Shown here piece by piece: positions 4,161 through 55,186 of a stretch of DNA of 64,000 bases (positions are counted from its first letter, which is position 1; each line of letters opens with the position of its first letter). Origin of the DNA: an uncultured Bacteroidota bacterium (GTDB lineage: Bacteria > Bacteroidota > Bacteroidia > B-17B0 > Aurantibacillaceae). The position numbers were made by a program, and so were the translations under genes. Under the pieces are notes generated by a model. It had not been told where the DNA came from. It saw only the letters and a list, made by a program, of their open reading frames with translations, and did no database searches. The stretch covers positions 2,686-66,685 of the forward strand of contig CAILKE010000016.1 in the NCBI GenBank assembly GCA_903834765.1, given 5' to 3'.

Positions 4161-4230
4161 TTATATAAAACTTAAGATAAAAAACCATTGACGTTTTTAC
4201 TTGCTGCAGCATTTAATATTAGAAATAGCT

Positions 4231-4311
4231 GAAAAAAGGGTTAATCTATTGTATATCAACAAAAAATCCCCTTCAAATATTTGAAGGGGATTGATTTGAG
4301 GTCCCGTCCAG
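4231..4311. repeat. Left copy of island-flanking imperfect direct repeat (att site); ends in a 14-nt copy of the tRNA-Cys 3' end
   Basis: 4231..4311 aligns by eye with 47442..47523, including a hairpin. The last 14 nt 'gaggtcccgtccag' (4298..4311) are identical to 47510..47523, which lie inside tRNA-Cys. Confidence 0.75.
4265..4292 (-). terminator. Rho-independent terminator-like hairpin (probable original tRNA-Cys terminator)
   Basis: Perfect palindrome aatccccttcaaat/atttgaaggggatt. On the minus strand it is followed by a T6 run (complement of the a-run just left of the hairpin, ending at 4266). Confidence 0.6.
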
Positions 4312-4369
4312 AATAGAACCCTCGCCCTTTTTAGGCTGATATTCAATTGGTTAAGAGAATTATAAAATC

Positions 4370-4391: not shown

Positions 4392-4479
4392 AACTTATTA
4401 AAAAGCAAATCTAAATGAGTGAATGATTTGATTACTGGAGGTTGATTAATTAACTTAGCTTTTTATAAAAAATAGGAAG

Positions 4480-26556: not shown

Positions 26557-26557
26557 A

Positions 26558-28549
26558 GTGGAGAAATTTATATTAAAAGAGAAGCTTAAAGAGCAAATTG
26601 ACAATAGGAAAGTTATTGCATCATTGTTCTATACTTTTAATTTTGATCCTAAGTTTTTTGAAAATTACATCATGCCTTTACTTATCCCAAAAGAAAAAAG
26701 TGAAAAATTTAGAGATGAAGTAATACATAATAAAATATTATGGAGGCAATATATTAAAGACGACATAATACCCCCTACAGCTGTATTCTGCGATTATTTC
26801 GCAAAAGATAATACAGAGGCACCATCATTAGGATATGACATACATTGTATTAGAACGCCTGCTGCACAGGGTAAAATATGTAATTTTCATCCAAAACATA
26901 TTTTTTTATTAGTTGAAGATGCTTCTAATACGTCATTAATTGTAGTTACAGGTTCTGGTAATATCACACCAAGTGGTTGGTGTGATAATATAGAATGCTT
27001 TTCAATAGAAGAATATAAGAAAAATAAAACTTTCCCAAATAAGACAACAACAAACATATTTCAAGACATAATAATTCAAACAGGGAAGCTAGCCAACTTA
27101 AAATTTTATTTGCCTGCTGAGGAGTTAATTAATGACTTTTTAAAATATGTTGATTATGAATTTCAATATTTTAATAGCACTGTTACTTCTTTTGAAGACT
27201 TTATAACTGAAAATATTTTATTAAAAGATACTATAACTGAAATTGAAATTGTATCTCCATATTTTAGTAATGATACTAAGTTAGTTTCACATTTAATGAG
27301 TAAGGGGATTAAAACAATCAAATGTTTAGTCCCAACATTAAAGGATAATGAAATACAAATTAATAAAGAAACCTTTGATACTTTAAGTGTTTCTGGTTTA
27401 AAATGGTCATTTTGGTCTGATTCGAAAATTAATAAAGAAGTAAGAAACTTGCATGCTAAAATATACAGGTTGCATGGTGAAAAGTATATTTATACAATTA
27501 TAGGTTCAGTGAACTTCACCAATCCTGCATGGAAAAAATTTGAGCAAAAAAATAACGAGGCCAATATTGAATCAGCCTATCTTTATAAAGAAAAAATGGC
27601 TATTAAATTATTAAAAGAGGCTAAAAATATTGATTTTAGCACCTATAATTTTATACCTAAAGAAAGTTTAGAAAACCAAATTGAAAATTTATTTAATCGA
27701 AATCCTCCTGATATAAGCTTTGAGATTGATTGGAAAAATAAATTAATTAAATACGAAGGCAAGAAAATAAATTCTGAATGTTTTTTCACTTCTTTGCTTG
27801 ATAAAAAAGTAATCACAACAGGTAAGCATGAGTATACTTTAAATAGCCAAGATTTAAAATCTCTTTCTAAGAATAGTTTAATTGAAGTTACTTTAATTAA
27901 TAACGGTAATACCGAATTTTATAGTTTTTATCCAACACAACTAAATTTTGAGTTCAAGCCACTAGATTTTAAAATTGATGCTTCAACAATTTTAAAATAT
28001 TGGCAATTTTTAGAAGATGAATTCCAAAAGGAAGGATTATTAAGTTTACTTATTGAGAGAATAACTGATGAATCAGGTATTGTGCATGAAGATAGAATTG
28101 AAAAAGTTTCTATTCTTAATGAAATGGCAACACATTTTAGCGCACTAATTAAACTAGAAGAATTTTTATTTTATAAAAAACTAACTTCTAAAACAGCTCA
28201 AAAGGAACATTTCAACTTTTTAAAGTATTACCTTTTATCTGAAAACATTGATACTATATCTTTCTACCTTGCAGATCTAGAAACCCAATTTCAAAACAAT
28301 AAAATTTACAAAACATTTTATTGGATGATTTTACAAATAATAATTAACAACTTTTATTTAAAGGCTGAAAAATGGGATTTCAAAAAGGAAATTGATAATA
28401 AAGAATGGAATGTTTTTAAAATCGACTTAAAACAAAAGCAAGAAACATTATCAATTTTAGCAAAAAATATTTCTAAAGAGCTTTCTGATGAAAATATAAA
28501 TCAGAAACTAGAGTGGGTAATAGAAAAATTAAAGGAAAATCATGAGTAA
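26558..28549 (+). CDS. PLD-superfamily protein with two HKD-like motifs plus ~330-aa unknown C-terminal region
   Basis: Motif 1 'FHPKHIFLL...VVTGSGNIT' (H111/K113, nt 26888..). Motif 2 'LHAKIYRLHGEKYIYTIIGSVNFT' (H299/K301, nt 27452..). GTG start 1 nt after the upstream stop. Confidence 0.75.
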   Translation: MEKFILKEKLKEQIDNRKVIASLFYTFNFDPKFFENYIMPLLIPKEKSEKFRDEVIHNKILWRQYIKDDIIPPTAVFCDYFAKDNTEAPSLGYDIHCIRTPAAQGKICNFHPKHIFLLVEDASNTSLIVVTGSGNITPSGWCDNIECFSIEEYKKNKTFPNKTTTNIFQDIIIQTGKLANLKFYLPAEELINDFLKYVDYEFQYFNSTVTSFEDFITENILLKDTITEIEIVSPYFSNDTKLVSHLMSKGIKTIKCLVPTLKDNEIQINKETFDTLSVSGLKWSFWSDSKINKEVRNLHAKIYRLHGEKYIYTIIGSVNFTNPAWKKFEQKNNEANIESAYLYKEKMAIKLLKEAKNIDFSTYNFIPKESLENQIENLFNRNPPDISFEIDWKNKLIKYEGKKINSECFFTSLLDKKVITTGKHEYTLNSQDLKSLSKNSLIEVTLINNGNTEFYSFYPTQLNFEFKPLDFKIDASTILKYWQFLEDEFQKEGLLSLLIERITDESGIVHEDRIEKVSILNEMATHFSALIKLEEFLFYKKLTSKTAQKEHFNFLKYYLLSENIDTISFYLADLETQFQNNKIYKTFYWMILQIIINNFYLKAEKWDFKKEIDNKEWNVFKIDLKQKQETLSILAKNISKELSDENINQKLEWVIEKLKENHE

Positions 28550-31500
28550 TTTAAAGGAAGATATAAATAACATTCTTAGATTACGAACCAATGATTCAAT
28601 TGGTAAAGAATTGGCTGAACGCCAATTTGAAGTTATTATGAGATCATTTGAATACCTCAATAAGCCTGAAAACAATATTATTTACATTGCTGATGAAGTA
28701 GGATTAGGAAAAACATATATAGCCGCTGGTATAGCTATGTTATTTCGTCATTTTAGTTCAGACATTAATAATCATAAAGATTTAATTATTGTACCAAAGA
28801 AGAACTTGCAATTTAAATGGAAAAAAGAACTGAATAATTTTATAAAATTTAATTACGTTGTAGAAAGTGATTCAATAAAAAAATTAGATTTTGAAAGTTG
28901 TATTAAGGATAAATTATTTGGCGTAAAATCAGAGGATCCAATAACAATTTTCAGAATGACTTCCTTTAGTAGCATAACATCTTCTGCAACAAATGAGAGA
29001 GCAAAACATTACAATCATTTGGTATATGTAGTTTTTGAAGAAGATGAATATTGTGAGGAAATTTTACTCGAAGCGTGGAATTTGAAATATTTTGAAAAAG
29101 ATAATCAACATAAATTGAGAAAGTTAATTGCTTATTTATTTAATGTAATTTCTTCAAAAGTTGATTGTTTAATAATTGATGAAGCTCATAATTACAAATA
29201 TGGCATTGGAAATGATTTTCACGATTCATCAATTAGAAACGAAGTAACAGCAAGATTTTTAGGGGCAGTTGATGATAAATCAATAATTAATGATTTTTCT
29301 AAATATAATTTACGTGGTAAAATCAAATTCCCTCTAGCAAATAAGACAATTTGTTTATCAGCAACCCCAAAAGACAGAAATTTACTTGAAATTAGAAATC
29401 AATTAAATTGCTTTGCTAAAACACATGTACTATCTGATTGTAAAGAAAGTAATGATATTAAAGAAAAATTAAAATCGTTTTTAATAAGAGGTAATTTAGA
29501 ATACAATTTAACCTCACGTGAAATACCTTTTTCAAGAAATGAATGTAGAGAAGAACACAGAAAAGGTAACGTTAATAAAATTGGTGAGGCAAAAAGATTA
29601 ATTGTTGAAGATAATTTTGAAAGTGTGTTTTGGCAGCTTTTACAATATAAATCAATCAAACATTTAGATCAAAAAAACAATAAGTCATTTGAAATAGGAA
29701 TGCTTGCTGGCTTTGAAAGCTACCAATTAGACACAGATAAAGTAAGAGCTACTAATGATGAAGTTGAAAACGAATCGTATAGCGATGAAAGTAAAGAGTA
29801 CGAACAAACCTCAAGCAGGAAACATAAAGAAAGTCAGGATATAAATATTGTAAAAGACATAGTTGATTCATACGTTGAACGATTTAAAAAAGAACCTCCA
29901 CCGCATCCAAAACAAAGTAAACTTGAGGAAGAGATAGTTAATCAACTATCTAGGCAAGAAAAATCATTAATCTTTGTAAGAAGGGTTGCTACTGCTTACG
30001 AATTAGAAAAACGCTTAATTCATTTATACGAAAATAAAGTTATTAAGGATAAGCATTTAAAGTTCACAGGTAAATATTCAAAATTTAACAGTCAAAAACT
30101 GAATGATTTACTTTCTGAATTTGATGAAAAACATATTGCTGAAAAGCTTGATGATGTTTTTAGATTAATTGATAATCGTTTAAATGTTCAGCAAATAATA
30201 CATTATAAATTACCCGACGAGAGTTTTCATTTACCTATAAATTCTTTAACTCTGTTACATAGAACATATAGTAATCCCAAAAACTCTGTATTTAAAGATT
30301 ATATTAAAAAATTCATCATTAAGAATTCTAAAAATATACTCGATGATTCAAAAAGTTTGATTATCAGTTCAATCGAAAGTACCCTCATTGACTATCTAAA
30401 TGAAATCAATGAAAACGATGGGATTGAAATAGAAATCAATGAATTTGATAACGCTGGAGATGAAAACTTTAAATATTTTTTTAGCGACTATTTTAAGGAA
30501 AATAAAAATGGATTCTTTTTTAGAACCAAGATGTATAGAGAGAATTGGTTTGATTTTAATTTGTGCCTAATTAATCAGTACTTCGATTTATTTAAATACA
30601 ATTCGCAACTATTGAAAATTGATATTGATAAAATTACTTTTGACGATAAGAAAAAGAAACATCAAAAATTCAATGATTATCAAGATGCGTATAAAAAATT
30701 TATAATATCAAATATTATTGCTGGTTCAGCTCAAAATGAAACCCAAGCAATTGAGCAATTAACTATCAATACTTTTCTTACAGATATTTTAATTAATCAT
30801 TGTTTTGCAGAATTTTATAATTGGATTGAGAAACATAATAACTCAGAAGCAGCGAGAGTTTTTGAGGATTTACAATTACTAAATGTATTATTAAAATGTG
30901 TTTTCAGAACTGGCAGTGGCTTACTACCAGCATTTGTTGCTGATTCAAGCGAAGGTGATTTCTCAGCAAATTTAGTAGAGTTAATTACTTTGGTAGATTC
31001 TCCATTTTATTATATGTTAAATGAAATTAAAACCATAATAAATGATTTTGATTTAATTATTGCAGTGAATTTTCAGGACAAAGATGAACGCAAAATCATA
31101 AGTACATTCAAAAATTTATCGCCAATCATTGGCACTAGTGGTCAAGATAAAAGAGATAGAGGTATTTTAGCAAATCAATTTAGAATGCCAGGCTATCCCT
31201 ACGTATTGGTAACAACAGATATTTTTCGTGAAGGAGAAGATTTACATACCTATTGCCAAAATATTTACCATTACGGTATAGCATGGAATCCTAGTGATAT
31301 GGAACAAAGAACAGGTCGTATCGATAGAATTAATTCATTAAGTTATAGAAGACTAAATCAAACTAATGATGTTAGTTTTAATAATAAAATTCATGTCTTT
31401 TATCCTTATTTAACCCAATCCGTTGAAGTAAATCAAGTTGCTAAATTGCTTACCAACATGAATATTTTTATTGAAGACTTTAATGAAATTGATAAAACGA

Positions 31501-31613
31501 ATAGTTATGAATCAAGCGTAAATACTAATGAAGAAATAACCGAAAAAGATATGCCAGAAGCAATTAAAAAAAGATTAATATCAAAATATGATATTCACGA
31601 TTTTATGGTTTAG
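28542..31613 (+). CDS. SNF2/SF2-family helicase-like ATPase
   Basis: 'ADEVGLGKTYIAAG' (motif I), 'IIDEAHNYK' (II), 'LSATP' (III), 'LVTTDIFREGEDLH' (V), 'QRTGRIDRINS' (VI). 8-nt overlap with the PLD gene. Confidence 0.85.
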   Translation: MSNLKEDINNILRLRTNDSIGKELAERQFEVIMRSFEYLNKPENNIIYIADEVGLGKTYIAAGIAMLFRHFSSDINNHKDLIIVPKKNLQFKWKKELNNFIKFNYVVESDSIKKLDFESCIKDKLFGVKSEDPITIFRMTSFSSITSSATNERAKHYNHLVYVVFEEDEYCEEILLEAWNLKYFEKDNQHKLRKLIAYLFNVISSKVDCLIIDEAHNYKYGIGNDFHDSSIRNEVTARFLGAVDDKSIINDFSKYNLRGKIKFPLANKTICLSATPKDRNLLEIRNQLNCFAKTHVLSDCKESNDIKEKLKSFLIRGNLEYNLTSREIPFSRNECREEHRKGNVNKIGEAKRLIVEDNFESVFWQLLQYKSIKHLDQKNNKSFEIGMLAGFESYQLDTDKVRATNDEVENESYSDESKEYEQTSSRKHKESQDINIVKDIVDSYVERFKKEPPPHPKQSKLEEEIVNQLSRQEKSLIFVRRVATAYELEKRLIHLYENKVIKDKHLKFTGKYSKFNSQKLNDLLSEFDEKHIAEKLDDVFRLIDNRLNVQQIIHYKLPDESFHLPINSLTLLHRTYSNPKNSVFKDYIKKFIIKNSKNILDDSKSLIISSIESTLIDYLNEINENDGIEIEINEFDNAGDENFKYFFSDYFKENKNGFFFRTKMYRENWFDFNLCLINQYFDLFKYNSQLLKIDIDKITFDDKKKKHQKFNDYQDAYKKFIISNIIAGSAQNETQAIEQLTINTFLTDILINHCFAEFYNWIEKHNNSEAARVFEDLQLLNVLLKCVFRTGSGLLPAFVADSSEGDFSANLVELITLVDSPFYYMLNEIKTIINDFDLIIAVNFQDKDERKIISTFKNLSPIIGTSGQDKRDRGILANQFRMPGYPYVLVTTDIFREGEDLHTYCQNIYHYGIAWNPSDMEQRTGRIDRINSLSYRRLNQTNDVSFNNKIHVFYPYLTQSVEVNQVAKLLTNMNIFIEDFNEIDKTNSYESSVNTNEEITEKDMPEAIKKRLISKYDIHDFMV

Positions 31614-32179: not shown

Positions 32180-32881
32180 TTAATGGCTCAAAGGAGCAGT
32201 ATTATACTCGGTTAAAAGTTTCGTTAAACTATATCTTTGTACTAATCGTTTAACTTGTTGGGGTTTAAAGTCCATGCCATTTATAGTTTTAGTTTTTAAC
32301 TTATTTAATTCATTAGATATAGCTAAGTAGTTTACTTGTTTTGTTTTCAGTATTATATTTTCTATGGATAGTACAATGTTTTTATTTTTATAACTATAAA
32401 GCTTTTTAGTGGCATTTGCCCCTTCGCTTCTTCCTTTTGTGCTAAAATTTCTAGTGCCTATTTTAGTAAACTCCCAATTATTTTCAGCCCTTAATTTATC
32501 CATTGTTTGTTTTATACGGTTACGTGTTACCGTAACCTCATTTTCGTACACAACGCTTAATATCTGTAAAGTAAACCGATCTATATTTTGATTCTCAACA
32601 AAAATGATATTTATAGATGAATCATATATCTGTTGTATAGTTGAACTCTTGCGCCCTAAACGGTCAATTGATTTACAAATCAGAGTTGCATTATTCTTTT
32701 TACAATAATCAATTGCTCTTAACAATTCTTTTCTGTTATCTTTTCTGCCGCTTATTTGTTCAATAAATTTCTGTTCAATGATATATTTATTGAGAGCAAA
32801 AGATGTGATAATGTTTTCTTGAATTACAAGACTATTATCCTGTCGCTTAGTCGATGTTCTAATATATGCTACTGCTTTCAT
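32180..32881 (-). CDS. Small serine recombinase (resolvase/invertase family)
   Basis: 'AVAYIRTSTKRQ' (catalytic Ser region), 'LICKSIDRLGRK', 'E..R..IKQ'-like 'TVTRNRIKQTMD'. 233 aa with a C-terminal helix region. Confidence 0.85.
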   Translation of the reverse strand: MKAVAYIRTSTKRQDNSLVIQENIITSFALNKYIIEQKFIEQISGRKDNRKELLRAIDYCKKNNATLICKSIDRLGRKSSTIQQIYDSSINIIFVENQNIDRFTLQILSVVYENEVTVTRNRIKQTMDKLRAENNWEFTKIGTRNFSTKGRSEGANATKKLYSYKNKNIVLSIENIILKTKQVNYLAISNELNKLKTKTINGMDFKPQQVKRLVQRYSLTKLLTEYNTAPLSH

Positions 32882-32929: not shown

Positions 32930-32967
32930 CTTAACACAGCTAAGTCAACTGACTTAGCTGTGTTAAG
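32930..32967. promoter_or_regulatory. Perfect 18-bp inverted repeat (2-nt spacer) in the divergent promoter region of the serine recombinase
   Basis: cttaacacagctaagtca-ac-tgacttagctgtgttaag. Lies 49 nt upstream of the recombinase start and 34 nt upstream of the 33001 ORF. Confidence 0.6.
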
Positions 32968-33000: not shown

Positions 33001-33714
33001 ATGGTTAACTTCGTAACTATGAATTGGGAAAGTAAATACGATGAATACGTTTTAAAGATGTCAGAAGAATATTTTGAAGAGAGATTTGAAATACGTCAGG
33101 ATGTCCCCTTTGAATTTGTTTACAAATACGAAAACATTAGAGAGTTTTTAAATGACAATAAAACAAACTTTTTGAATTTTATAGTATCTGATCCACTATC
33201 AGCCTTTCGAAATCTACAGTCACAATTACCAATTCTAGCAGAGCATTTAATATACTGTGCACATAAAGAGCAATCACTAAGTGAAAAAGACTTCTGTAAA
33301 TGCTTTCTGCGGATATACTTATATGCAGCAAAAGGGAAAACATTGTTTAAGCATTTAATTAGTTATTCAGAATTGGTTGAAATATTTAGTACCTATAATT
33401 TTAAATCTATTATGGATACTGATGAGAAAAAACAATTTGAAAAACTGCAAACAAGTGTGGCATTATTTCGAGGGTCAGCGGGAATTGATTTTGATGAAGC
33501 AAAGAAAGGTATTAGTTGGTCCTTAAATTATGATAGAGCAGAAGAATTTGCTCTGTATGATAGAGATTACTTTAATGCTAATTCTGCCATTGTTATTGAC
33601 GCAACTATCTCAAAGAAAGACATCCTAGTTTTTTCCAATCTACGAGGGGAATATGAAGTTATTATTAATCCTGATGAATTAAGAAATATACGTTTTAGAG
33701 ACCTAGGTCGTTGA
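33001..33714 (+). CDS. Hypothetical protein; weak R-S-E ADP-ribosyltransferase-like motif set
   Basis: 'LFRGS' (R157), 'ISWSLNYDRAEEFA' (S172-x-S174), 'GEYEVIINP' (E217-x-E219). The order fits the ART R/STS/ExE pattern, but the R-to-S spacing is short. Confidence 0.5.
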   Translation: MVNFVTMNWESKYDEYVLKMSEEYFEERFEIRQDVPFEFVYKYENIREFLNDNKTNFLNFIVSDPLSAFRNLQSQLPILAEHLIYCAHKEQSLSEKDFCKCFLRIYLYAAKGKTLFKHLISYSELVEIFSTYNFKSIMDTDEKKQFEKLQTSVALFRGSAGIDFDEAKKGISWSLNYDRAEEFALYDRDYFNANSAIVIDATISKKDILVFSNLRGEYEVIINPDELRNIRFRDLGR

Positions 33715-34645: not shown

Positions 34646-35971
34646 ATGATAAAATTCCTACCAAAAAACCTAGACTTAAAACATTTATTAGCCGAACACC
34701 CACCAGAGTTCAAATATCATATTGATCACTTTGTACATCTTTGTAGCTTATTGTATGAATTACCAGCAAAGAAGAAAGGTGCTCTAAATGAAGGAGGTTA
34801 TGTTTCTTTAAATGCTCACATGTTAAAGAAAGTAAATAACAATTATAAGAAGTATTTTAATTATTTAATTCAGCATGGTGTAATAGAATGTGATAATTCA
34901 TACATCGTTGGCAAGAAAAGTAAAAGTTACCGCTATGCCCCAAAATACCAGGATATAATACAACCTACTTATATTACTAAGTATACTTTAACTAAAAACT
35001 TAAAAGAAATACACAGGTTTAACAGAGACATGTATGCTAAATATAATTATTTGTATAAATGGTTTGATGATGGGCTATGTGTAGATTTTGAAAAAGCAGA
35101 ACAAAAGCTGATTGAACTATATCAAAAGAATAAAGAAGCAGGAGAGAAGAACGCCCTACATAAACTGAATGTTAATTTAGTAAACCTAATTAAGCTACAA
35201 AAGAAGGATTTCTATTTCACTGTAGATTCAACATCTAAAAGATTACATACCTTACTTACTAAAATAAAAAAGGATTTAAGAGAGTACATTACATTTGATA
35301 ATAAAAAGTTAAGTAATATCGACATACAATGTTCTCAACCAACATTATCATTGTGTTTATTAGAACCATCATTTTATAATACAGAATTAAAGCAGGAGCG
35401 TGTCACTATAAATTCTATAGACCCACAGCTAACAGATAAACTGCCGATACAAGCTATTACTAAATATGTAACAGCTAATCAAGATAAATTTGACAGCTAC
35501 CGTAAATTAGTGTTTGATGATTTATATGTCGGTATGGCTGAGATTTTAAAAAGTAAATCCGTTAATATTGCCACTGACAGAGATAGTTTAAAAGATATGA
35601 TGTATATGGTACTATACTCTAGTAATAAGTTTTTAAACGGCAACCAAGGACTACCTAAACGTATTTTTAAAGAACTGTTTCCTGAAGTGTACGAAGTATT
35701 TAAAATGTATAAATCAGCAGGACAAGAAAACCTACCAATACTACTACAAAAAATTGAAGCTGTATTGATATTAGAAAAGGCCGCTAAAACAATAGCAAAA
35801 GCTCAACCCGGCATGCCACTTTTTACAATCCACGATTCTATAGTCTGCCCGACTGATAAAACTGAATTTTGTAAAAATATTATTGTATCAGAAGCTATTA
35901 AGTATTTAGGTTTTGAGCCCAAACTTAAGATTGATCTGTGGGCTGAACCCACAGAGAAGAAGGGGGGTTAG
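34646..35971 (+). CDS. Compact family-A / T7-RNAP-like polymerase-fold protein (motifs A, B, C present; no exonuclease domain)
   Basis: 'SKRLHT' (cf. TGRLSS). Motif A 'NIDIQCSQPTL' (D226, nt 35321). 'DLYVGMAEIL' (cf. DIHTATA). Motif B 'RDSLKDMMYMVLYSS' (cf. RxxxKxxxxxxxYG). Motif C 'FTIHDSIV' (nt 35831..35839). Confidence 0.55.
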   Translation: MIKFLPKNLDLKHLLAEHPPEFKYHIDHFVHLCSLLYELPAKKKGALNEGGYVSLNAHMLKKVNNNYKKYFNYLIQHGVIECDNSYIVGKKSKSYRYAPKYQDIIQPTYITKYTLTKNLKEIHRFNRDMYAKYNYLYKWFDDGLCVDFEKAEQKLIELYQKNKEAGEKNALHKLNVNLVNLIKLQKKDFYFTVDSTSKRLHTLLTKIKKDLREYITFDNKKLSNIDIQCSQPTLSLCLLEPSFYNTELKQERVTINSIDPQLTDKLPIQAITKYVTANQDKFDSYRKLVFDDLYVGMAEILKSKSVNIATDRDSLKDMMYMVLYSSNKFLNGNQGLPKRIFKELFPEVYEVFKMYKSAGQENLPILLQKIEAVLILEKAAKTIAKAQPGMPLFTIHDSIVCPTDKTEFCKNIIVSEAIKYLGFEPKLKIDLWAEPTEKKGG

Positions 35972-36222: not shown

Positions 36223-38124
36223 TTAATGTGCCTCTAACCAATTATCACCATACCCAATATCTACCTTTAGAGGGACTAATAATTCTGCTGCACTTTCCAT
36301 GACTCTTTTAAGCATAGGGATTAGAGTATCTAATTCTTTTTTTGGAACGTCTAATACAATCTCATCATGAACAGATAAAACCATCTTAGCTTTATAACCA
36401 CCGCGTTCTAATTCATTAAACACATTGATCATTGCTTTTTTAATTATATCCGCAGATGTCCCTTGTATAGGAGTATTTACCGCCATGCGTTTAGCTGCTG
36501 TACGTTTAGATTTGTTTTGGGAGTCAATTTCTTTAATGTATCGTCGTCTTCCGAATAATGTAGTACTATAACCGTTAATCGTTGCTAAATAGTACGCCTC
36601 CTCATGGTAATTTCTGACACCTGCAAATCCTTCAAAATAACTATCCATGTATTCTTTCGCTTTCTCAACATCTACCTCTTCTCCAGTTTCATCAGCAATA
36701 CGTTCAGCTAAAGTTTTAGCAGACATAAGATAATTTAAACCAAAGTTGATTGTCTTTGCAACCTTTCGTCTTTTATCATCTTTACCAATTTCTTCTATAG
36801 GTGCACCAAATACTTTAGAAGCAGTAGCAGTATGTATATCTAAGCCAGCTTTAAACGCCTTTATCATATCAGGGTCTTTAGAGTAGTGAGCAATAACACG
36901 AAGCTCAATCTGTGAATAATCAGCAGATACAATAACATGATCTGCATCAGTAGGAATAAATACTTTACGTATTTGTTTTCCAAAACCTTCGTGCTGATGC
37001 GGTATGTTTTGCAGGTTGGGATTAGATGAACTTAAACGTCCAGTAACAACACGCGCTTGTCTAAAATTACTGTGTATTTTATTCGTATCAGGATGAATGT
37101 TATTCGGTAATTTACTTAAGAAACTATTTTTAATTGAAGAAATAGCTTTGTATTTAAGTATTAATGACACTACTGGATGATCATGTTTTAATTTTAGTAA
37201 TGTTTTTTTACTAGTGCTTAATTCACCTGTTTTGGTTTTTATGTCGCTGACTAATTGTAGTTCATCAAACAACACCTCTCGTAAATCCTGATTAGAATTT
37301 ATATTAAACTCAGCACCAACTAAATCAAATATCTGTTGCTGTAATATTTCTAATTCAACATCAGCCTCCATATCAAGAATAAGTAAAGCATCGTAATCAA
37401 TATTGACACCAGTATATTCCATATCTGCTAACACTTTAACTAAAGGCATTTCAATGGTTTCAAATAAAGTGTCAATACCCATTTTACTTAGAATAGGTTC
37501 TAAATGATGTTGAAGTTGTAATGTTTGGTCGGTATCCTCAGAAGCATAAACAGCAGCCTCTTCAATCGAAACTTCTCTCATGGATAGCTGTGTTTTACCT
37601 GTTCCAATTAAATCTGAAATTTCTATTTGCTGGTAGTTCAATAACTCTTTAGATAGTTCCTTTAATCCATGCTTAGCATCACCATCGATTAAATAGTGAG
37701 CAATCATTGTATCAAACAGTTTACCGTTAACAGCTATGTCATATCTGCGTAGAACATTAATATCAAATTTTAAATTATGGCCGGTTTTTGATATAGTTGG
37801 ATTTTCAAAATACGGTTTGTAGGGTAGGAGTAGTTGCTGAGCTTGTGCAGGGTCTTCGGGAACAGGTAAGTAGTATGATTCGTTAGCATTAAATGCAAAT
37901 GAAATACCAACTAATTGTAATGAATGAATGGTTAATGCAGAACCTGATTCGGTTGCACCAGTTTCAGTATCGAATGTGAAACTGGTGCAGTTTTGAAGTT
38001 CACTAAGTAATTGCTGTTTTATTTCCTCAGAATCTACCACCATATAAGAGTAGTTTACATCGGCAAGTGTTTTATATACATCAGTTACATTAGGGGTCAA
38101 TCGCATTATCCTCTTCCTGAACAC
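36223..38124 (-). CDS. Family A DNA polymerase (3'-5' exonuclease + polymerase domains, phage/plasmid type, no 5' nuclease)
   Basis: Exo motifs 'FDTETG', 'GHNLKFD', 'YASEDT'. Pol motifs 'TGRLSSSNPNLQNIP', 'DYSQIELRV', 'RRKVAKTINFGLNYLMS', 'SVHDEIVLD'. The start may be the internal M7 (38106). Confidence 0.92.
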   Translation of the reverse strand: MFRKRIMRLTPNVTDVYKTLADVNYSYMVVDSEEIKQQLLSELQNCTSFTFDTETGATESGSALTIHSLQLVGISFAFNANESYYLPVPEDPAQAQQLLLPYKPYFENPTISKTGHNLKFDINVLRRYDIAVNGKLFDTMIAHYLIDGDAKHGLKELSKELLNYQQIEISDLIGTGKTQLSMREVSIEEAAVYASEDTDQTLQLQHHLEPILSKMGIDTLFETIEMPLVKVLADMEYTGVNIDYDALLILDMEADVELEILQQQIFDLVGAEFNINSNQDLREVLFDELQLVSDIKTKTGELSTSKKTLLKLKHDHPVVSLILKYKAISSIKNSFLSKLPNNIHPDTNKIHSNFRQARVVTGRLSSSNPNLQNIPHQHEGFGKQIRKVFIPTDADHVIVSADYSQIELRVIAHYSKDPDMIKAFKAGLDIHTATASKVFGAPIEEIGKDDKRRKVAKTINFGLNYLMSAKTLAERIADETGEEVDVEKAKEYMDSYFEGFAGVRNYHEEAYYLATINGYSTTLFGRRRYIKEIDSQNKSKRTAAKRMAVNTPIQGTSADIIKKAMINVFNELERGGYKAKMVLSVHDEIVLDVPKKELDTLIPMLKRVMESAAELLVPLKVDIGYGDNWLEAH

Positions 38125-39331
38125 TTGATAAATCTACATGTATCACACGTTTGGTATTAGCTGGCTTTTCTTCATAAGCAATACCACGGTACTTTAAATA
38201 TTTGTGAACCTTCATCATAAATTTATTTTGAGACGGATAATATTTTTGTAAACCATAATGGCTTTTTACAAAATCATCATACAAATCTTTTTTATTCCAC
38301 TTCTCAGCACCTGATAGTACCTTCTCATCTAAAAAGTCTTTAAGGTCACTACCACCTAATTCACCTATAAGTTTACGAAGAGCTGCATTAATTTGTGGCG
38401 GTTGTATAATTCCTTTTTTTAAATACAACTGAGTGCAATTAATAAAAAAATTAAACATGTGATTAAAATCTTCGTTATTCCATTCTTGAAAAAACTCACG
38501 TCCGAACTCCTGCATTGGTTTTAGAGCAGAGCCATAGTATGACGAAACTTCAAACTCAACCTTACGTCTTTCTGAACTATTGCCTGCAATACATTTAACA
38601 GGGAAGTTAGATGAAATGATAATTTTAGGTGTACGTTCCTTTGGAATTTTAAACGCTGCTTTGTTTTTTTGGTTAACCTCTAAACCAGCAGATACAATAC
38701 TAAAACAAAATTCAAAAGATGTGTGTCTGTCTAGATCATCAATAAACATTATTTCGGTATCTAAATCCAAACGTTGAAACCTGAAGTCCCCACCTGGTTT
38801 AAAATCCTTGCCGTCAATATCTATCATGTTTCTAATTAACCCTAGAGCCAAACATATCGTTGTTTTTCCTGTGCCGCCTTGGGCCTCTTCGGTTCCATTA
38901 ATAGTTTCATCAAGGAAGCATGGTACTACAGTTAAAGATGGCGACCAGTAGCGGTGTAATATATAGCCGATAATAGTTTGTAAGGCTTCAAATCGTTTTT
39001 CATCTTTATTACATACTCTAAAGCAGAACTCTTTAAAATCGCCTAATGATACGCCAACGCCAAGTAAATTAATATCGTAAGGTTTAACTTGTTTCATCCA
39101 AATAAAACCGTCCAGTTCTTTATAATCCATTAAGTTTATGCCATCAGCAGTAACTTTTACAACACCATTTTTAAAATAAAAAAAGCTTTCTTTTTTAGTA
39201 TCATAATGAAAAGATATTTCTTTAATACCAAGTAATCTAAGCTTAGGTACATTGATGTATTTATCAATACCTCTAACTAGTACGTTTATTAAATGATTCT
39301 TCTCGAAACCATAAATTGAAAAATCATCCAC
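38090..39331 (-). CDS. P-loop NTPase, D5/P4-like (SF3) replicative helicase candidate; same frame as the upstream ORF across a single TGA
   Basis: 'FFYFKNGVVKVTADG' (D5_N-like), Walker A 'QGGTGKTT', Walker B 'IMFIDDLD'. The track start is GTG. 36 sense codons lie open upstream, back to the TGA at 39440..39442. Confidence 0.65.
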   Translation of the reverse strand: MDDFSIYGFEKNHLINVLVRGIDKYINVPKLRLLGIKEISFHYDTKKESFFYFKNGVVKVTADGINLMDYKELDGFIWMKQVKPYDINLLGVGVSLGDFKEFCFRVCNKDEKRFEALQTIIGYILHRYWSPSLTVVPCFLDETINGTEEAQGGTGKTTICLALGLIRNMIDIDGKDFKPGGDFRFQRLDLDTEIMFIDDLDRHTSFEFCFSIVSAGLEVNQKNKAAFKIPKERTPKIIISSNFPVKCIAGNSSERRKVEFEVSSYYGSALKPMQEFGREFFQEWNNEDFNHMFNFFINCTQLYLKKGIIQPPQINAALRKLIGELGGSDLKDFLDEKVLSGAEKWNKKDLYDDFVKSHYGLQKYYPSQNKFMMKVHKYLKYRGIAYEEKPANTKRVIHVDLSSVQEEDNAIDP

Positions 39332-39439: not shown

Positions 39440-39748
39440 TCAGCAAAAACCTTTGTCACGTAAATGAATTAGTAATCCTTCATGGTGTATTGTAATTTCC
39501 TTTTTTGAGATTTGCCAAAAATCACCGAAAACGGTTTTTGATTCAGGTTCTATGACTTCAATTGTAGTAGGTGTAGTTTGATCTGTTGGTTCCGTTGTTG
39601 TTTCTGATTCAGGAATTATTACATCAGCAGTTGCTTGTGTAGTTAGATCTACTGGTTCATTTGTTATTCCTGATTCAGGTGTTACAGCATAATCAAATGT
39701 TGGTTTAGTTTGGTCATCTGACCCTGTTGAGTTTTTTGGAGTTTCCAT
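39440..39748 (-). CDS. Thr/Glu/Pro-rich ORF, probably the N-terminal part of the helicase gene
   Basis: 102 aa ending 'LIHLRDKGFC*'. In frame with 38090..39331. Confidence 0.4.
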   Translation of the reverse strand: METPKNSTGSDDQTKPTFDYAVTPESGITNEPVDLTTQATADVIIPESETTTEPTDQTTPTTIEVIEPESKTVFGDFWQISKKEITIHHEGLLIHLRDKGFC

Positions 39749-39816: not shown

Positions 39817-40155
39817 TTACACTTTTTCTGTTAAGGTTTCTTTTGTGTTTTCTACTTTAGTAACTACTAAATCAGTAACTACTATTTCAATACTGGACGT
39901 TCTTAATACATTAAAGCATTTAGTTTGACCATCTTTCGCTGTGTAAGATTTACCGTGAATTTCAAAAGTTACTTCTACGATACTATTTAATGGTATCGCA
40001 TCTAGTTTTTTAATATCATTGCCGAGTATTTCAAATGATAAATTTGGATAAGCACCGGGGCTCAGTCGAGATACTATGAATTCTTTTTTGGTCAATTTGC
40101 TACTGAATTCTTGAAATGCTCCTACATGAAATAGGATTCCTTTAATTTTAAACAT
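39817..40155 (-). CDS. DUF3127-like OB-fold protein (putative ssDNA-binding)
   Basis: 112 aa. 'MFKIKGILFHVGAFQEFSSKLTKKEFIV...LSFEILGNDIKKLD...VEVTFEIHGKSY' matches the layout of DUF3127 proteins in Bacteroidota phages and elements. Confidence 0.55.
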   Translation of the reverse strand: MFKIKGILFHVGAFQEFSSKLTKKEFIVSRLSPGAYPNLSFEILGNDIKKLDAIPLNSIVEVTFEIHGKSYTAKDGQTKCFNVLRTSSIEIVVTDLVVTKVENTKETLTEKV

Positions 40156-44358: not shown

Positions 44359-45627
44359 ATGGAATTAATACAAAGCATACCAATGTCAATAAAGTTTACT
44401 TTGGAGAAATCTAGAGATAAAAGTAAAGATGTGTACTGGGTTTATGCTCGGATAATTTGTAAAAGAGAACGAGTATTAATCTCTTTAAAAATGGAAGCAC
44501 AAATAGATGACTGGGATTTCGCAAACCATCAATTTGTTCAATCTAAAAAAATAAACCTAGTTAAAAATAATAAGTTGCGTTCAATTGCTGATGAGTTAAC
44601 GCAAATCTACCTTGACTTAAAACGTACAGGTTCACCAATTTCATCTAAAGTAATTAAGAATATCTACAATGGAGATATAACACAATCATCTGATGTTGAG
44701 TTTATGACGTTTTATAACAAACACTTAGAAGAACTCAAGCTAAAAACAAATGAATATACAGATGGGGTTATAGGGCATTATGTTAAAACACAAACTCATT
44801 TAGTGAGATTCTTAAAGCTGAACGGCCTCTCAAAAATTAAAATGAATGAATTAAGCAGAAAATTTATAGAGCGTTTTGAGAACTATTTATTGAGTACACC
44901 TAATGCACACACCGGTAGACCTATGAATTCTAATACATCTGCTACATACATTAGAAAATTAAGAGCTACTATAAATGCTGCATATAAAATGGAAGTGATA
45001 CCAACTAATCCGTTTGTTAGTTTCAAAATGCATCCAATTAAGTCTGCAAATAAAACTGTATTATCACAAGAAGAACTTGATGTCCTAAATAGTCATGCTT
45101 TAGATGATAATTTTGCTTTAGATAAAGCAAGAAAAATGTTTTTATTTTGTTGTGCAACTGGCTTACGTCACTCCGATGCTACGCAACTTCATAATGACAT
45201 GATTAGAAAAGATGAGGATGGTGTTTATTGGATTTCTATGAGTCAACAAAAAACAGGTGACAATGTTGAAATACCACTTTCTAACATAGCTGAAAAAATT
45301 TACCATGAGTTTGAAGCACACCGCATAGCAACTGGATTTGCCTTACCAATGCTGAGCAATCAAAAATCTAATGATGCATTAAAAGCTATATCTAAAAAAG
45401 TAGAAATAAATAAAAACATAAGCTGGCACGTTGCGAGGCATACATTCGCTACCAATAGTTTGAATCATGGTGTTGATATAGCAGCAGTAAGTAGTTTAAT
45501 GGGTCATCGTACAATTAAAACAACTCAAATCTATGGTAAGGTAACACGTAAGCGTAAAGCTGATGTAATTAAGTTTTTAAATGCAAAAACAGCGGTAGCA
45601 AAACCTAAAAAGAAAAATGGAAAGTAG
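44359..45627 (+). CDS. int: Tyrosine-type site-specific integrase (Arm-binding N-terminus + SAM-like + catalytic domain)
   Basis: 'GLRHSDA' (R), 'WHVARHTFAT' (HxxR), 'LMGHRTIKTTQIYGKV' (H...Y). Confidence 0.92.
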   Translation: MELIQSIPMSIKFTLEKSRDKSKDVYWVYARIICKRERVLISLKMEAQIDDWDFANHQFVQSKKINLVKNNKLRSIADELTQIYLDLKRTGSPISSKVIKNIYNGDITQSSDVEFMTFYNKHLEELKLKTNEYTDGVIGHYVKTQTHLVRFLKLNGLSKIKMNELSRKFIERFENYLLSTPNAHTGRPMNSNTSATYIRKLRATINAAYKMEVIPTNPFVSFKMHPIKSANKTVLSQEELDVLNSHALDDNFALDKARKMFLFCCATGLRHSDATQLHNDMIRKDEDGVYWISMSQQKTGDNVEIPLSNIAEKIYHEFEAHRIATGFALPMLSNQKSNDALKAISKKVEINKNISWHVARHTFATNSLNHGVDIAAVSSLMGHRTIKTTQIYGKVTRKRKADVIKFLNAKTAVAKPKKKNGK

Positions 45628-47370: not shown

Positions 47371-47410
47371 ATTACTGCAACATTTTCGATTACTGCAACA
47401 TTACTGCAAC
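47371..47410 (+). promoter_or_regulatory. Three direct copies of ATTACTGCAAC (putative arm-type integrase sites), island right end
   Basis: Copies at 47371..47381, 47389..47399 and 47400..47410, in the same orientation as the 4370..4391 pair. Confidence 0.45.
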
Positions 47411-47441
47411 AATTTTAAGCAGAAATAAGCGGAAGTAAGCA

Positions 47442-47523
47442 GAAAAAAGCGTTAATCTATTGATTATCAATAAAAAATCCCCTTCATTTAGTATGAAGGG
47501 GATTAGTTGGAGGTCCCGTCCAG
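47442..47523. repeat. Right copy of island-flanking direct repeat (overlaps the tRNA-Cys 3' end)
   Basis: Aligns with 4231..4311. Identical 14-nt core at 47510..47523. Confidence 0.75.
47476..47504 (-). terminator. Terminator hairpin following tRNA-Cys (island-borne copy)
   Basis: aatccccttcat-ttagt-atgaaggggatt. On the minus strand it is followed by a T run. Confidence 0.6.
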
Positions 47524-47581
47524 GTTCGAACTGGAGTAGCAGCTTTTGCAGAGCTGAGCCTAACCACTCGGCCACAGGACC
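47508..47581 (-). tRNA. tRNA-Cys: tRNA-Cys (anticodon GCA), CCA encoded
   Basis: Reverse complement GGTCCTGTGGCCGAGTGGTTAGGCTCAGCTCTGCAAAAGCTGCTACTCCAGTTCGAACCTGGACGGGACCTCCA. 7-bp acceptor stem; anticodon stem CAGCT/AGCTG with loop CTGCAAA; T-arm TCCAG-TTCGAAC-CTGGA. Confidence 0.92.
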
Positions 47582-47985
47582 ATTTTCGTAAATGGTTATT
47601 AATTGTTTTAATCAAATTCCAAGAACGGGTAGCAAATATAAGATTTTTTTAGCAATCTAGTTTAATTTTTATAAAAATTTGCTTTTACATTCTACTAATC
47701 TTGATATTATTATTCTTTTTAGAAATCGTTTGGAACAATTTTTTATGAGTGTCATCGTCTATATGGGTTCACCCAATCCCCTTTATGAATGTATATTCTA
47801 AATAAATAAAATATTTATTATTGAAATTTGAGTTTGTTGTTTTTTTAGCAAATATTAAAATAATATATATTAATAAATGTCAGGTTTTGTGAATTGAACA
47901 AATGAATTTGTAAGAAGGATTTAAAATAATAACGCCTGCAGTAATAAATTACAACAGGCGCTATTGGTTGTTTTTAATTTAAAAG

Positions 47986-54965: not shown

Positions 54966-55186
54966 AACTATATTTAATAGTAAAAAAACTCTAAAATCAA
55001 TTTATTCAGAGGGCTTTTAGAAGTCATTTCCAACATGGAGTTAGTTTAGCGACGATTACTTGATAATTACGTCTTTGGCCAAAATACAATTTAGTTACAG
55101 ATTTTCTATTATTTTAATTAAAATCCAAGAACGTGTAGCTAAAATAAGATTTTTTTAGCAACTTAGTCTAATTATTATAATAAAAT

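What the first reader, a model, noticed from the sequence alone, without database searches (positions are those of the whole stretch)
34646..35971. 441-aa miniature PolA/T7-RNAP-like polymerase with an HDS motif C and no steric-gate Glu
The C-terminal ~250 aa align motif by motif with the bona fide PolA encoded 300 nt away. 'SKRLHT' pairs with 'TGRLSS'. 'NIDIQCSQPTL' pairs with 'ADYSQIELR' (motif A). 'DLYVGMAEIL' pairs with 'DIHTATASKV'. 'RDSLKDMMYMVLYSS' pairs with 'RRKVAKTINFGLNYL' (motif B); T7 RNAP has RSVTKRSVMTLAYGS here. 'LLQKIEAVLILEKA' pairs with 'PIQGTSADIIKKAM'. 'FTIHDSIV' pairs with 'SVHDEIVL' (motif C); T7 RNAP has HDS. There is no exonuclease domain, and the N-terminal ~190 aa are unassignable. 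The motif A position equivalent to the PolA steric-gate Glu is not Glu, and motif C is the RNAP-like HDS, so the enzyme might polymerise ribonucleotides. The element has a helicase and a DNA polymerase but no recognisable DnaG/AEP primase. I therefore speculate that this protein is the element's primase or a dedicated transcriptase. At about half the size of T7-like RNAPs it would be an unusually small single-subunit polymerase.
Basis: inference. Interest (0 to 1): 0.7.

Follow-up and report, generated by a model that had tools for sequence, protein, structure and literature searches.

The report
Minimal PolA-like polymerase of genomic islands
This 441-aa gene encodes a stripped-down relative of DNA polymerase I fused to a DNA-binding domain; it is typical of tRNA-integrated islands in Bacteroidota and most likely primes the island's own replication, a type of enzyme (TV-Pol) predicted in 2008 but almost untested.

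Summary
An AlphaFold2 model (pLDDT 93) matches only family A DNA polymerases in the PDB (88 hits, E down to 3e-6). Sequence methods (Pfam, NCBIfam, PHROGs, PADLOC, HMM vs PDB, hhalign vs PolA) see nothing.

The N-terminal 145 aa form a winged-helix-like domain, not an exonuclease remnant. The family is large (9,505 clusters at 50% identity) and always annotated 'hypothetical'. Its conserved partner is a tyrosine integrase in tRNA-targeting islands (22 of 31 loci). Only the three closest relatives have the PolA/D5-like module.

This matches the published TV-Pol family (Iyer, Abhiman and Aravind 2008): minimal superfamily-A polymerases on mobile elements, predicted to be primase-polymerases. One member, SCCmec CCPol-MP, has been shown to prime. 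I could not prove TV-Pol membership by sequence.

'HDS' and the missing steric-gate Glu are real, but the T7-type 2'-OH-sensing Tyr is mostly Phe, so sugar choice is open. Verdict: a new, unannotated member or subfamily of a known kind, of moderate interest.

The parts
34646..35971 (+). Target ORF, 441 aa: winged-helix-like N-domain plus a minimal family-A-like polymerase core (TV-Pol-like)
34646..35080 (+). N-terminal domain (aa 1-145), winged-helix-like, putative DNA-binding or targeting domain
   Evidence: Modelled alone at pLDDT 87.7. All weak Foldseek hits are wHTH proteins (MarR/PadR/Fur, ScpB/MukE, plasmid RepA_N, DnaD-N, ORC), best E=0.03. The fold class is inferred, not significant.
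35087..35200 (+). Thumb: two long antiparallel helices (aa 148-164, 170-185)
   Evidence: DSSP of the model, interpreted by analogy with the TV-Pol/PolA thumb (PMC2579912)
35216..35251 (+). Beta-hairpin (aa 191-202) carrying invariant R199 (Klenow R668 equivalent); R212 (98%) follows 13 residues later (R682 equivalent)
35303..35350 (+). Motif A strand and helix start (aa 220-235): invariant D226, then S230-Q231-P232; no Glu at the steric-gate position
35579..35626 (+). Motif B / O-helix (aa 312-327): R312-x3-K316-x3-Y320-x3-Y324-S-x-N327
35741..35761 (+). LLQxIE motif (aa 366-372): Q368 (99%, Klenow Q849 equivalent) and invariant E371
35822..35845 (+). Motif C hairpin (aa 393-400): F-T-I-H396-D397-S398-I-V
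36223..38124 (-). Island-encoded Klenow-like PolA (3'-5' exo plus pol), about 46% identical to chromosomal Bacteroidota Pol I; probable elongating polymerase
38090..39331 (-). D5-like/DUF5906 NTPase (putative replicative helicase); fused to the PolA in relatives
39817..40155 (-). DUF3127 / phrog_4932 SSB-like small protein
32180..32881 (-). Serine recombinase (resolvase family)
44359..45627 (+). Tyrosine integrase (Arm-DNA-bind_5 + SAM_5 + Phage_integrase) of the island
4227..4319 (.). Distal att-like direct repeat (partial copy of the tRNA-Cys 3' end and its downstream hairpin)
   Evidence: D5, D9
47438..47581 (-). tRNA-Cys (47508-47581) plus the proximal copy of the repeat: the integration site of the ~43-kb island

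Best explanation
The gene encodes a catalytically competent, minimal superfamily-A (PolA/T7-RNAP-type) nucleotidyl transferase of the TV-Pol kind. It has a ~290-aa thumb, beta-hairpin, palm and fingers core with no nuclease domain, preceded by a ~145-aa winged-helix-like domain. It is a core gene of tRNA-targeting, tyrosine-integrase-borne genomic islands of Bacteroidota and neighbouring phyla. Most likely it is the island's primase-polymerase. After excision, or on incoming single-stranded DNA, the N-domain positions the enzyme on island DNA. The polymerase core then starts a chain de novo and extends it for a short distance. Synthesis is then handed to a processive polymerase: in this window the island's own proofreading PolA with its D5-like NTPase and SSB-like protein, and in the small islands the host replisome. 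Shown here: the fold, the conservation of the catalytic constellation, and the genomic association. Inferred: de novo priming, DNA targeting by the N-domain, the hand-off, and the type of nucleotide used.
For: Fold: the AF2 model has pLDDT 93.4 and pTM 0.89. Foldseek against the PDB gives 88 hits at E<=1e-3, and all 50 top hits shown are family A DNA polymerases at probability 1.0. BFVD gives full-length matches to ~400-aa phage proteins (TM 0.73/0.79, E=4e-25), one named 'putative DNA polymerase I', followed by many phage PolAs. Active site: equivalents of Klenow R668, R682, D705, R754, K758, F762, Y766, Q849, H881 and D882 are 98-100% conserved, except R312 (85% Arg, 9% Lys) and the aromatic positions 320 and 324 (mostly Phe, with Leu or Tyr). 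Context: a tyrosine integrase lies within 10 kb in 22 of 31 loci, often next to a tRNA. There is an 8.5-kb tRNA-Phe island with int, HTH_17, target and AbiH, where the target is the only replication-type gene. D5-like/VapE NTPases are adjacent in the window, L001, L010, L011 and L042. No DnaG or AEP primase was found in the island. A proofreading PolA already present in the island makes a second plain elongating polymerase redundant. Precedent: TV-Pols were predicted to be prim-pols from the same contexts (PMC2579912). SCCmec CCPol-MP is an experimentally shown A-family primase-polymerase on an integrative element beside a helicase (PMC7581432, PMC10061031).
Against: There is no biochemical data for this family. 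No sequence-level link was found to PolA or to the one candidate TV-Pol I could fetch, Ma-LMM01 MAP_030. CCPol needs an OB-fold partner to prime, and an SSB-like neighbour (DUF3127) was found in only 4 of 31 loci. Most islands carrying the gene have no helicase, so autonomous replication is unproven. No iterons or origin-like repeats were seen next to the gene. The winged-helix assignment of the N-domain rests on non-significant hits. One plasmid and one viral contig that carry a member also have a conventional Rep initiator.
Confidence: 0.55

Rival explanations
1. It is a primer-dependent DNA polymerase only, with no priming. For example it could be a gap-filling or low-fidelity synthesis enzyme used during integration, excision or second-strand completion of the island.
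For: The best structural matches are DNA polymerases. Position 320 (the Klenow F762 equivalent) is Phe in 65% of members. PolA-type enzymes are normally primer-dependent, and CCPol alone only extends primers (and PMC7581432).
Against: In this island and its close relatives a full proofreading PolA is already present, which would make such an enzyme redundant. The small islands offer no primase for it to follow except the host's. The added N-terminal DNA-binding-type domain and the int-xis-X gene position are those usually held by initiator or primase genes.
Confidence: 0.15
2. It is a dedicated single-subunit RNA polymerase (transcriptase) for island genes, a half-size analogue of T7 RNAP whose N-domain recognises a promoter.
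For: HDS motif C is 91% Ser and never Glu. There is no steric-gate Glu. The D-x-x-x-S motif A resembles T7 RNAP DGSCS. The enzyme has an N-terminal DNA-binding-type domain.
Against: None of the 50 top PDB matches shown is a T7-like, mitochondrial or N4 RNAP. The Tyr639 equivalent that senses the 2'-OH in T7 RNAP is Phe in 61% of members. Cargo genes differ from island to island and lie on both strands, and I found no shared promoter-like repeat. There is no counterpart of the specificity loop or promoter-melting hairpin in a ~290-aa core; this last point is inference.
Confidence: 0.1
3. It is a defence-related polymerase whose nucleic-acid synthesis contributes to anti-phage immunity (like the Abi/DRT polymerases) rather than to island replication.
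For: The islands are packed with defence cargo: type I R-M, Mokosh-like genes, PDC-M27, AbiH, ArdA and AAA_13. Rice (PMC10061031) raises this possibility for the PolA-SSB primases.
Against: The gene travels with the integrase core, not with any one cargo system. No PADLOC model matches it. It also occurs next to ParA or VapE-type maintenance genes on a plasmid and on a viral contig.
Confidence: 0.08
4. It is a degenerate, catalytically dead PolA remnant kept as a DNA-binding or regulatory protein.
For: It is not detectable by any PolA sequence profile. Rice (PMC10061031) found RRM-only, probably inactive relatives in similar operons.
Against: Both metal-binding Asp residues, the triphosphate-binding Arg and Lys, and the template-contacting Arg and Gln are 98-100% conserved in 215 sequences that share as little as ~22% identity. 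That pattern is the signature of selection on catalysis.
Confidence: 0.03

Closest known systems
TV-Pol family (Transposon-Virus polymerases; Iyer, Abhiman and Aravind 2008, Biol Direct 3:39, PMC2579912)
   Same: Size is 400-600 aa. The minimal superfamily-A core consists of a bihelical thumb, a beta-hairpin with an absolutely conserved Arg, an RRM palm with two Asp, and fingers with RxxxK. There is no nuclease domain. A subset has an extra N-terminal globular domain. Contexts are lambda-type integrases, gamma-delta resolvases, R-M hot spots and D5-like helicases. Members are reported in Bacteroidetes. The family was predicted to be primase-polymerases.
   Different: I could not verify membership by sequence. 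The paper's alignments are not available here. The one candidate exemplar I could fetch (Ma-LMM01 MAP_030) gave only E=0.016 in a profile-profile comparison, and in the N-domain only. The paper predicts an all-helical N-domain, whereas this one models as a helix-plus-hairpin winged-helix type. The paper's 'conserved aspartate' in the fingers has no clear counterpart; here an invariant Tyr294 occupies that region.
CCPol-MP primase-polymerase of SCCmec, and the PolA-SSB pairs of Bacillota (Bebel et al. 2020, PMC7581432; Rice 2023, PMC10061031)
   Same: It is an exonuclease-less A-family polymerase on an integrative island, encoded beside a helicase and a small SSB-like protein. It is the only relative with demonstrated de novo priming.
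   Different: CCPol is recognisable as PolA by sequence and is closest to the CHEAP subfamily. It keeps a partial exo remnant and the E710/F762 sugar-discrimination residues, and it makes DNA primers. It needs the OB-fold protein MP. Its hosts are Bacillota and its recombinases are large serine recombinases. The present family instead has a winged-helix-like N-domain, Gln231 or an aromatic residue in place of the Glu, HDS, usually no SSB neighbour, tyrosine integrases, and Bacteroidota hosts.
Pol I polymerase domain (Klenow, KlenTaq, Bst, apicoplast apPOL)
   Same: These are the best structural matches. The order and spacing of the catalytic residues are the same (R668, R682, D705, R754, K758, F762, Y766, Q849, H881 and D882 equivalents).
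   Different: The core is about 290 aa against about 400 aa. There is no 3'-5' exo domain, motif C is HDS rather than HDE, there is no steric-gate Glu, and there is no detectable sequence similarity.
T7-like single-subunit RNA polymerases
   Same: Shared features are HDS motif C, the D-x-x-x-S motif A, the R-x3-K-x7-[Y/F]-[S/G] motif B, an N-terminal nucleic-acid-binding domain, and capacity for de novo initiation.
   Different: It is half the size, T7-like RNAPs are not among the top structural matches, the Tyr639 equivalent is mostly Phe, and it has no specificity loop or other promoter-handling elements.
piPolB of pipolins and AEP prim-pols of integrative elements (functional analogues)
   Same: Each is a self-priming or priming polymerase that serves as a hallmark gene of tyrosine-integrase, tRNA-targeting islands.
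   Different: The polymerase folds or families are unrelated (family B and AEP respectively).

Membership tests
Superfamily A polymerase fold (PolA / T7 RNAP / TV-Pol) | Right-hand thumb, palm and fingers fold of the family A type | tested here: met
   The AF2 model has pLDDT 93.4. Foldseek against the PDB gives 88 hits at E<=1e-3, and all 50 top hits shown are family A DNA polymerases at probability 1.0. Phage PolAs are hit in BFVD. Global TM-scores are only 0.26-0.39 because of size and domain-pose differences.
Superfamily A polymerase fold (PolA / T7 RNAP / TV-Pol) | Two metal-binding Asp residues (motifs A and C) and the R-x3-K O-helix motif | tested here: met
   D226, D397 and K316 are 100% conserved. 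R312 is 85% Arg and 9% Lys, in 215 sequences.
Pfam DNA_pol_A (PF00476), i.e. canonical PolA by sequence | Significant match to the PolA profile | tested here: not met
   No Pfam hit for the target or for any of 50 members at E<=1. An HMM of the family against PDB sequences gives 0 hits. hhalign against a Bacteroidota PolA profile gives Prob 1.6%.
Pfam DNA_pol_A (PF00476), i.e. canonical PolA by sequence | HDE motif C and the steric-gate Glu in motif A (DNA polymerase signature) | tested here: not met
   Motif C is H-D-[S/C/N/A] and never E. Position D+5 is Gln in 98% of members.
TV-Pol (Iyer et al. 2008) | Thumb made of two antiparallel helices | tested here: met
   Helices 148-164 and 170-185 lie immediately before the hairpin.
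TV-Pol (Iyer et al. 2008) | Beta-hairpin with an absolutely conserved Arg | tested here: met
   Strands 191-193 and 200-202 form the hairpin, and R199 is 100% conserved.
TV-Pol (Iyer et al. 2008) | Fingers inserted after the first palm strand, with RxxxK and a conserved Asp | tested here: inconclusive
   RxxxK is present (R312, K316) in helix 312-324. No conserved fingers Asp was found; instead Y294 and E371 are invariant.
TV-Pol (Iyer et al. 2008) | No fused or linked nuclease; mobile-element context with an integrase, resolvase or transposase, or with a D5-like helicase | tested here: met
   A tyrosine integrase is present in 22 of 31 loci. A resolvase lies two genes upstream in the window. 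D5-like/VapE NTPases are neighbours in 5 loci. R-M cargo is present. Caveat: in the window and 3 relatives, an exo-containing PolA is a neighbour.
TV-Pol (Iyer et al. 2008) | Sequence-profile relatedness to named TV-Pol members | tested here: inconclusive
   The reference alignment is not available. The candidate Ma-LMM01 MAP_030 shows the same motif order, including LLQRIE and HDG. However, hmmsearch is not significant, and hhalign gives E=0.016 for the N-domain only. The catalytic halves are not above the controls.
CCPol-MP / PolA-SSB primases | Obligate small OB-fold partner encoded between the polymerase and the helicase | tested here: not met
   An SSB-like DUF3127 protein is present in the window's island but is separated from the target by the D5-like and PolA genes and lies on the other strand. 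It was found in only 4 of 31 loci.
CCPol-MP / PolA-SSB primases | De novo primer synthesis | not testable with these tools
   This needs biochemistry.
T7-like single-subunit RNAP | Tyr (T7 Y639) that senses the 2'-OH; promoter specificity loop; size of about 800-1100 aa | tested here: not met
   Position 324 is Phe in 61% and Tyr in 38% of members. The protein is 441 aa. No RNAP appears among the 50 top PDB matches shown.

The most novel reading that the evidence does not exclude
The family is a self-contained initiator-primase. A winged-helix domain would recognise the island's origin, and a ~290-aa A-family core would start chains de novo with ribonucleotides, without an SSB partner. That would make it the smallest known single-subunit DNA-dependent RNA polymerase. 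It would also be a third, widespread class of RNA primase beside DnaG and AEP, driving replication of thousands of Bacteroidota defence islands.
Probability: 0.15. Interest if true: 0.8.

Novelty: new member of a known kind. Interest (0 to 1): 0.45.

Why it matters
It matters for four reasons.

1. Annotation. A family of about 9,500 clusters at 50% identity is labelled 'hypothetical' everywhere and is invisible to Pfam, NCBIfam, PHROGs and PADLOC. It can now be annotated as a minimal PolA-like (TV-Pol-type) polymerase.

2. Island biology. The gene marks a very common class of tRNA-integrated islands in Bacteroidota that carry defence systems. It suggests that these islands replicate or prime their own DNA after excision, which bears on how defence islands spread.

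3. Enzymology. Only one TV-Pol-type enzyme (CCPol-MP) has ever been tested. This family offers a compact, confidently modelled enzyme of 441 aa. It could be used to ask what turns a primer-dependent PolA fold into a primase, and what sets sugar selectivity when neither the Pol I steric gate nor the T7 Tyr is conserved.

4. Evolution. TV-Pols were proposed to resemble the ancestor of both Pol I and T7-like RNAPs.

Tried and rejected
- Sequence routes to a fold assignment all failed: Pfam, PHROGs, NCBIfam and PADLOC on the target; Pfam on all 50 aligned members at E<=1; phmmer and a family HMM against PDB sequences; BLASTP and hhalign against the neighbouring PolA and against a 33-sequence PolA profile.
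- TV-Pol membership by sequence was not established. The paper's supplement is not held. I fetched Ma-LMM01, picked MAP_030 as the likely TV-Pol (506 aa, next to transposases) and built a 6-sequence profile. The hmmsearch, hhalign and shuffle-controlled comparisons were not significant. I do not know for certain that MAP_030 is the paper's TV-Pol.
- Plasmid Rep hypothesis: the Hymenobacter plasmid that carries a member also has a conventional replication initiator with its own ParA, so that context is uninformative.
- Origin search: there are no iterons or tandem repeats next to the gene.
- N-domain as an exonuclease remnant: rejected, because all weak structural hits are winged-helix proteins.
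- SNF2 protein at 28542-31613 as the island's replicative helicase: rejected, because it matches PDC-M27C/DrmD-type defence helicases.
- Literature searches for a recent description of this Bacteroidota family found nothing.
Full report
**Observation**

A genuine PolA with 3'-5' exonuclease and polymerase domains (PF01612 + PF00476, E=1e-135) lies convergent to it at 36223..38124, 251 nt away. The target has no match in Pfam, PHROGs, NCBIfam or PADLOC. It has no match among PDB sequences, either as a single sequence or as a family HMM. BLASTP and hhalign against the neighbouring PolA, or against a PolA profile, are not significant.

**It is a real and large family**

A word-indexed search found 83 clusters, all named 'hypothetical' and without Pfam domains. 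An exhaustive HMMER search with a 50-sequence profile found 9,505 representatives at 50% identity with E<=1e-3, and 3,688 with E<=1e-30. The 150 listed are nearly all 430-600 aa and match almost the full length of the profile. Source names are 'hypothetical protein' throughout. The genome scan found members mainly in Bacteroidota (Draconibacterium, Tenacibaculum, Aestuariibaculum, Hymenobacter, Sediminibacterium), with some in Ignavibacteria and Verrucomicrobiia.

**Fold**

An AlphaFold2 model built on the alignment is very confident (mean pLDDT 93.4, pTM 0.89).
- Foldseek against the PDB gives 88 matches at E<=1e-3. All 50 top matches shown are family A DNA polymerases: apicoplast apPOL (E=3e-6), M. 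smegmatis Pol1, KlenTaq, Bst, Klenow and Pol nu, at probability 1.0.
- Global TM-scores are modest (0.26-0.39), as expected for a much smaller protein with mobile subdomains.
- Against BFVD, the best matches are ~400-aa phage proteins that superpose over the full length (A0A516L5C2: TM 0.73/0.79, E=4e-25; A0A8D9FR19: 'Putative DNA polymerase I'). Many phage PolAs follow.
- No T7-like RNAP is among the PDB matches shown.

**Catalytic constellation**

In 215 aligned members, R199, D226, Y294, K316, E371 and D397 are invariant. R212, Q231, P232, Q368 and H396 are at least 98% conserved. Read against the model's secondary structure, these fall as follows:
- R199 lies in a beta-hairpin (strands 191-193 and 200-202), and R212 lies 13 residues later. 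These correspond to Klenow R668 and R682.
- D226 ends the first palm strand (motif A).
- R312-x3-K316-x3-[F/L/Y]320-x3-[F/Y]324 lies in a finger helix. This is motif B, corresponding to R754, K758, F762 and Y766.
- Q368 corresponds to Q849.
- H396-D397 lie in the motif C hairpin, corresponding to H881 and D882.

The Klenow numbering is from my own knowledge of that enzyme. The equivalences are inferred from order, spacing and secondary structure, because the tools return no residue-level superposition. This degree of conservation, in sequences sharing as little as ~22% identity, argues for an active enzyme and against a dead remnant.

**The rest of the protein**

Helices 148-164 and 170-185 form the bihelical thumb. 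Residues 1-145 model confidently on their own (pLDDT 87.7). This domain has no significant PDB match (best E=0.03). Every weak hit is a winged-helix DNA-binding protein: MarR, PadR, Fur, ScpB/MukE, the staphylococcal plasmid RepA_N initiator, DnaD-N and ORC. I therefore read it as a winged-helix-like DNA-binding domain and not as an exonuclease relic, with low confidence.

**Sugar selectivity**

Motif C is H-D-S (Ser 91%, otherwise C/N/A, never Glu). There is also no Glu at the steric-gate position: D226+5 is Gln231 (98%), and if the register is instead set by the helix N-cap (S-Q in both families), the equivalent is position 233 (Y/F/L/T).

The inference to ribonucleotide use is weak, for three reasons. 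Gln is isosteric with Glu. The position equivalent to T7 RNAP Tyr639, which reads the 2'-OH (my own knowledge), is Phe in 61% of members. The F762 equivalent is Phe in 65%. Neither the Pol I nor the T7 discrimination device is conserved, so the substrate cannot be called. By contrast, the characterised CCPol keeps the E710 and F762 equivalents and makes DNA primers.

**Genomic setting in the window**

A 93-nt stretch at 4227-4319 repeats 47438-47531 (78-84% identity). The latter overlaps the 3' end of tRNA-Cys at 47508-47581. The target therefore lies in a ~43-kb tRNA-Cys island, with its tyrosine integrase at 44359-45627. The island carries the following:
- type I R-M genes, with an embedded Mokosh-like MkoA/MkoB pair;
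- a PDC-M27-type candidate defence system, which includes the SNF2 'helicase' at 28542-31613;
- a serine recombinase at 32180-32881;
- a replication block on the minus strand: an SSB-like DUF3127 protein (39817-40155, phrog_4932), a D5-like/DUF5906 NTPase (38090-39331), and the PolA.

The PolA is about 46% identical to chromosomal Bacteroidota Pol I, and in relatives it is fused to the D5-like protein. No DnaG or AEP primase was found among the island's ORFs.

**Setting elsewhere**

In 31 non-redundant loci, the PolA and D5-like genes accompany the target only in the three closest relatives (72-73% identity). A tyrosine integrase lies within 10 kb in 22 loci, often beside a tRNA gene. Typical islands read tRNA - integrase - (HTH_17 excisionase-like) - target - cargo, where the cargo is AbiH, ArdA plus a resolvase, or type I R-M. 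One example is bounded by 20-nt repeats at a tRNA-Phe and is only 8.5 kb long, with the target as its only replication-type gene. On an IMG/VR contig, a member follows a VapE/DUF5906 NTPase and precedes a ParA. On a Hymenobacter plasmid, a member lies near a ParA-like gene, but that plasmid also has a conventional Rep.

**Comparison with what is known**

This anatomy and context are those of the TV-Pol family, defined in 2008 (PMC2579912). TV-Pols are 400-600 aa proteins from mobile elements and viruses, including Bacteroidetes. They contain the minimal superfamily-A core:
- a bihelical thumb;
- a hairpin with an absolutely conserved Arg;
- a palm with two Asp;
- fingers with RxxxK.

They are never fused to nucleases. 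They occur either with D5-like helicases, or with an extra N-terminal domain next to lambda-type integrases, resolvases or transposases in R-M-rich hot spots. They were predicted to be primase-polymerases. The one tested member, SCCmec CCPol, is a DNA primase-polymerase when bound to the OB-fold protein MP. The authors noted that no other TV-Pol has been characterised (PMC7581432). Related PolA-SSB pairs have been described only in Bacillota (PMC10061031). Later classifications of PolAs do not cover this family (PMC10201439, PMC12926913).

Four of the five TV-Pol features I could test are met. The fifth is only partly met: the 'conserved fingers Asp' has no clear counterpart. Sequence-level membership could not be verified, because the reference alignment is unavailable. 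My surrogate, Ma-LMM01 MAP_030, shows the same motif order, including an LLQRIE motif and HDG, but gives no significant profile score.

**Mechanism proposed**

The enzyme is the island's primase-polymerase.
1. The winged-helix-like domain brings the core to island DNA. In this role it would be analogous to the promoter-binding N-domain of T7 RNAP, to the winged-helix domains of plasmid initiators, and to MP in CCPol-MP.
2. The core starts and briefly extends a chain.
3. Synthesis then passes to the island's PolA, D5-like NTPase and SSB-like protein (this window), or to the host replisome (the small islands).

The fold, the active-site conservation and the gene associations are shown here. Priming, targeting and hand-off are inferred. 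Rivals are a primer-dependent polymerase only, a dedicated transcriptase, a defence polymerase, and a dead remnant. They are listed with their evidence in the rival explanations.

**Verdict**

The functional speculation (primase) is reasonable and has precedent, while the ribonucleotide and transcriptase reading is weak. The enzyme type is not new, since TV-Pols date from 2008 and CCPol-MP from 2020. This particular family, however, is very large, unannotated, biochemically untouched and distinctive in three ways: the winged-helix-like N-domain, the HDS motif C, and the absence of either sugar-discrimination device. I rate it a new member (probably a distinct subfamily) of a known kind, with interest 0.45.

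Noticed in passing
window 4227-4319 and 47438-47581: Imperfect direct repeats (78-84% identity) that include the 3' end of tRNA-Cys delimit a ~43-kb integrated island holding almost all the defence and replication genes of the window. A second short repeat pair (4373-4396 and 47392-47415) lies alongside.
   Followed up: partly
window 16693-21131: A Mokosh-like pair (MkoA: kinase plus SF1 helicase, 1020 aa; MkoB, 458 aa) is inserted inside a type I R-M operon, between hsdS (15512-16693) and hsdR (21128-24130). A GHKL-ATPase gene (13470-15512) lies between hsdM and hsdS.
   Followed up: no
window 25420-31613: Three genes match the candidate defence system PDC-M27A/B/C (an unknown protein, a PLD-family nuclease and an SNF2/DrmD-like helicase). 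The helicase is not a replication protein.
   Followed up: no
window 38090-38124; L001 11638-15075: The D5-like NTPase ORF and the PolA ORF overlap by 35 nt here. In relatives they form one fused protein of 1108-1145 aa (D5-like N-terminus, exo plus pol C-terminus), an unusual helicase-PolA fusion.
   Followed up: partly
window 32930-32967: A perfect 18-nt inverted repeat with a 2-nt spacer lies in the intergenic region between the serine recombinase gene and ORF 33001-33714. It could be an operator or a recombination site.
   Followed up: no
window 39534-39665: A 66-nt tandem duplication (73% identity) lies inside the small Thr/Pro/Glu-rich ORF 39440-39748, between the D5-like and SSB-like genes.
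   Followed up: no
window 47581-47677 and 55087-55183: A 97-nt non-coding repeat (79% identity) lies upstream of tRNA-Cys and again upstream of ORF 55187-56332. It may be a shared regulatory region.
   Followed up: no
L016, L017, L032: Family members occur on short contigs (2-5 kb) binned into Promethearchaeota, Methanosarcinaceae and 'uncultured archaeon' MAGs. One carries a tyrosine integrase and an HTH_17 gene. This is probably mis-binned bacterial island DNA rather than archaeal carriage.
   Followed up: no
phage records LR756501-LR756504, LR756511, LR745206: Megaphage-sized uncultured phage genomes (595-735 kb) give partial tblastn matches (26-28% identity, E down to 2e-9), mostly to the catalytic half of the protein.
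   Followed up: no
L037 22746-24266 (Microcystis phage Ma-LMM01 MAP_030): This 506-aa hypothetical protein lies next to two transposase genes. It shows the same motif order as the target family (vPL..NY..G.cFRYR; GLRVY; NYDVVKCH; LLQRIE; QHDG), but statistical support is lacking. It has only 6 homologous clusters in the 5.8-billion-protein set.
   Followed up: partly
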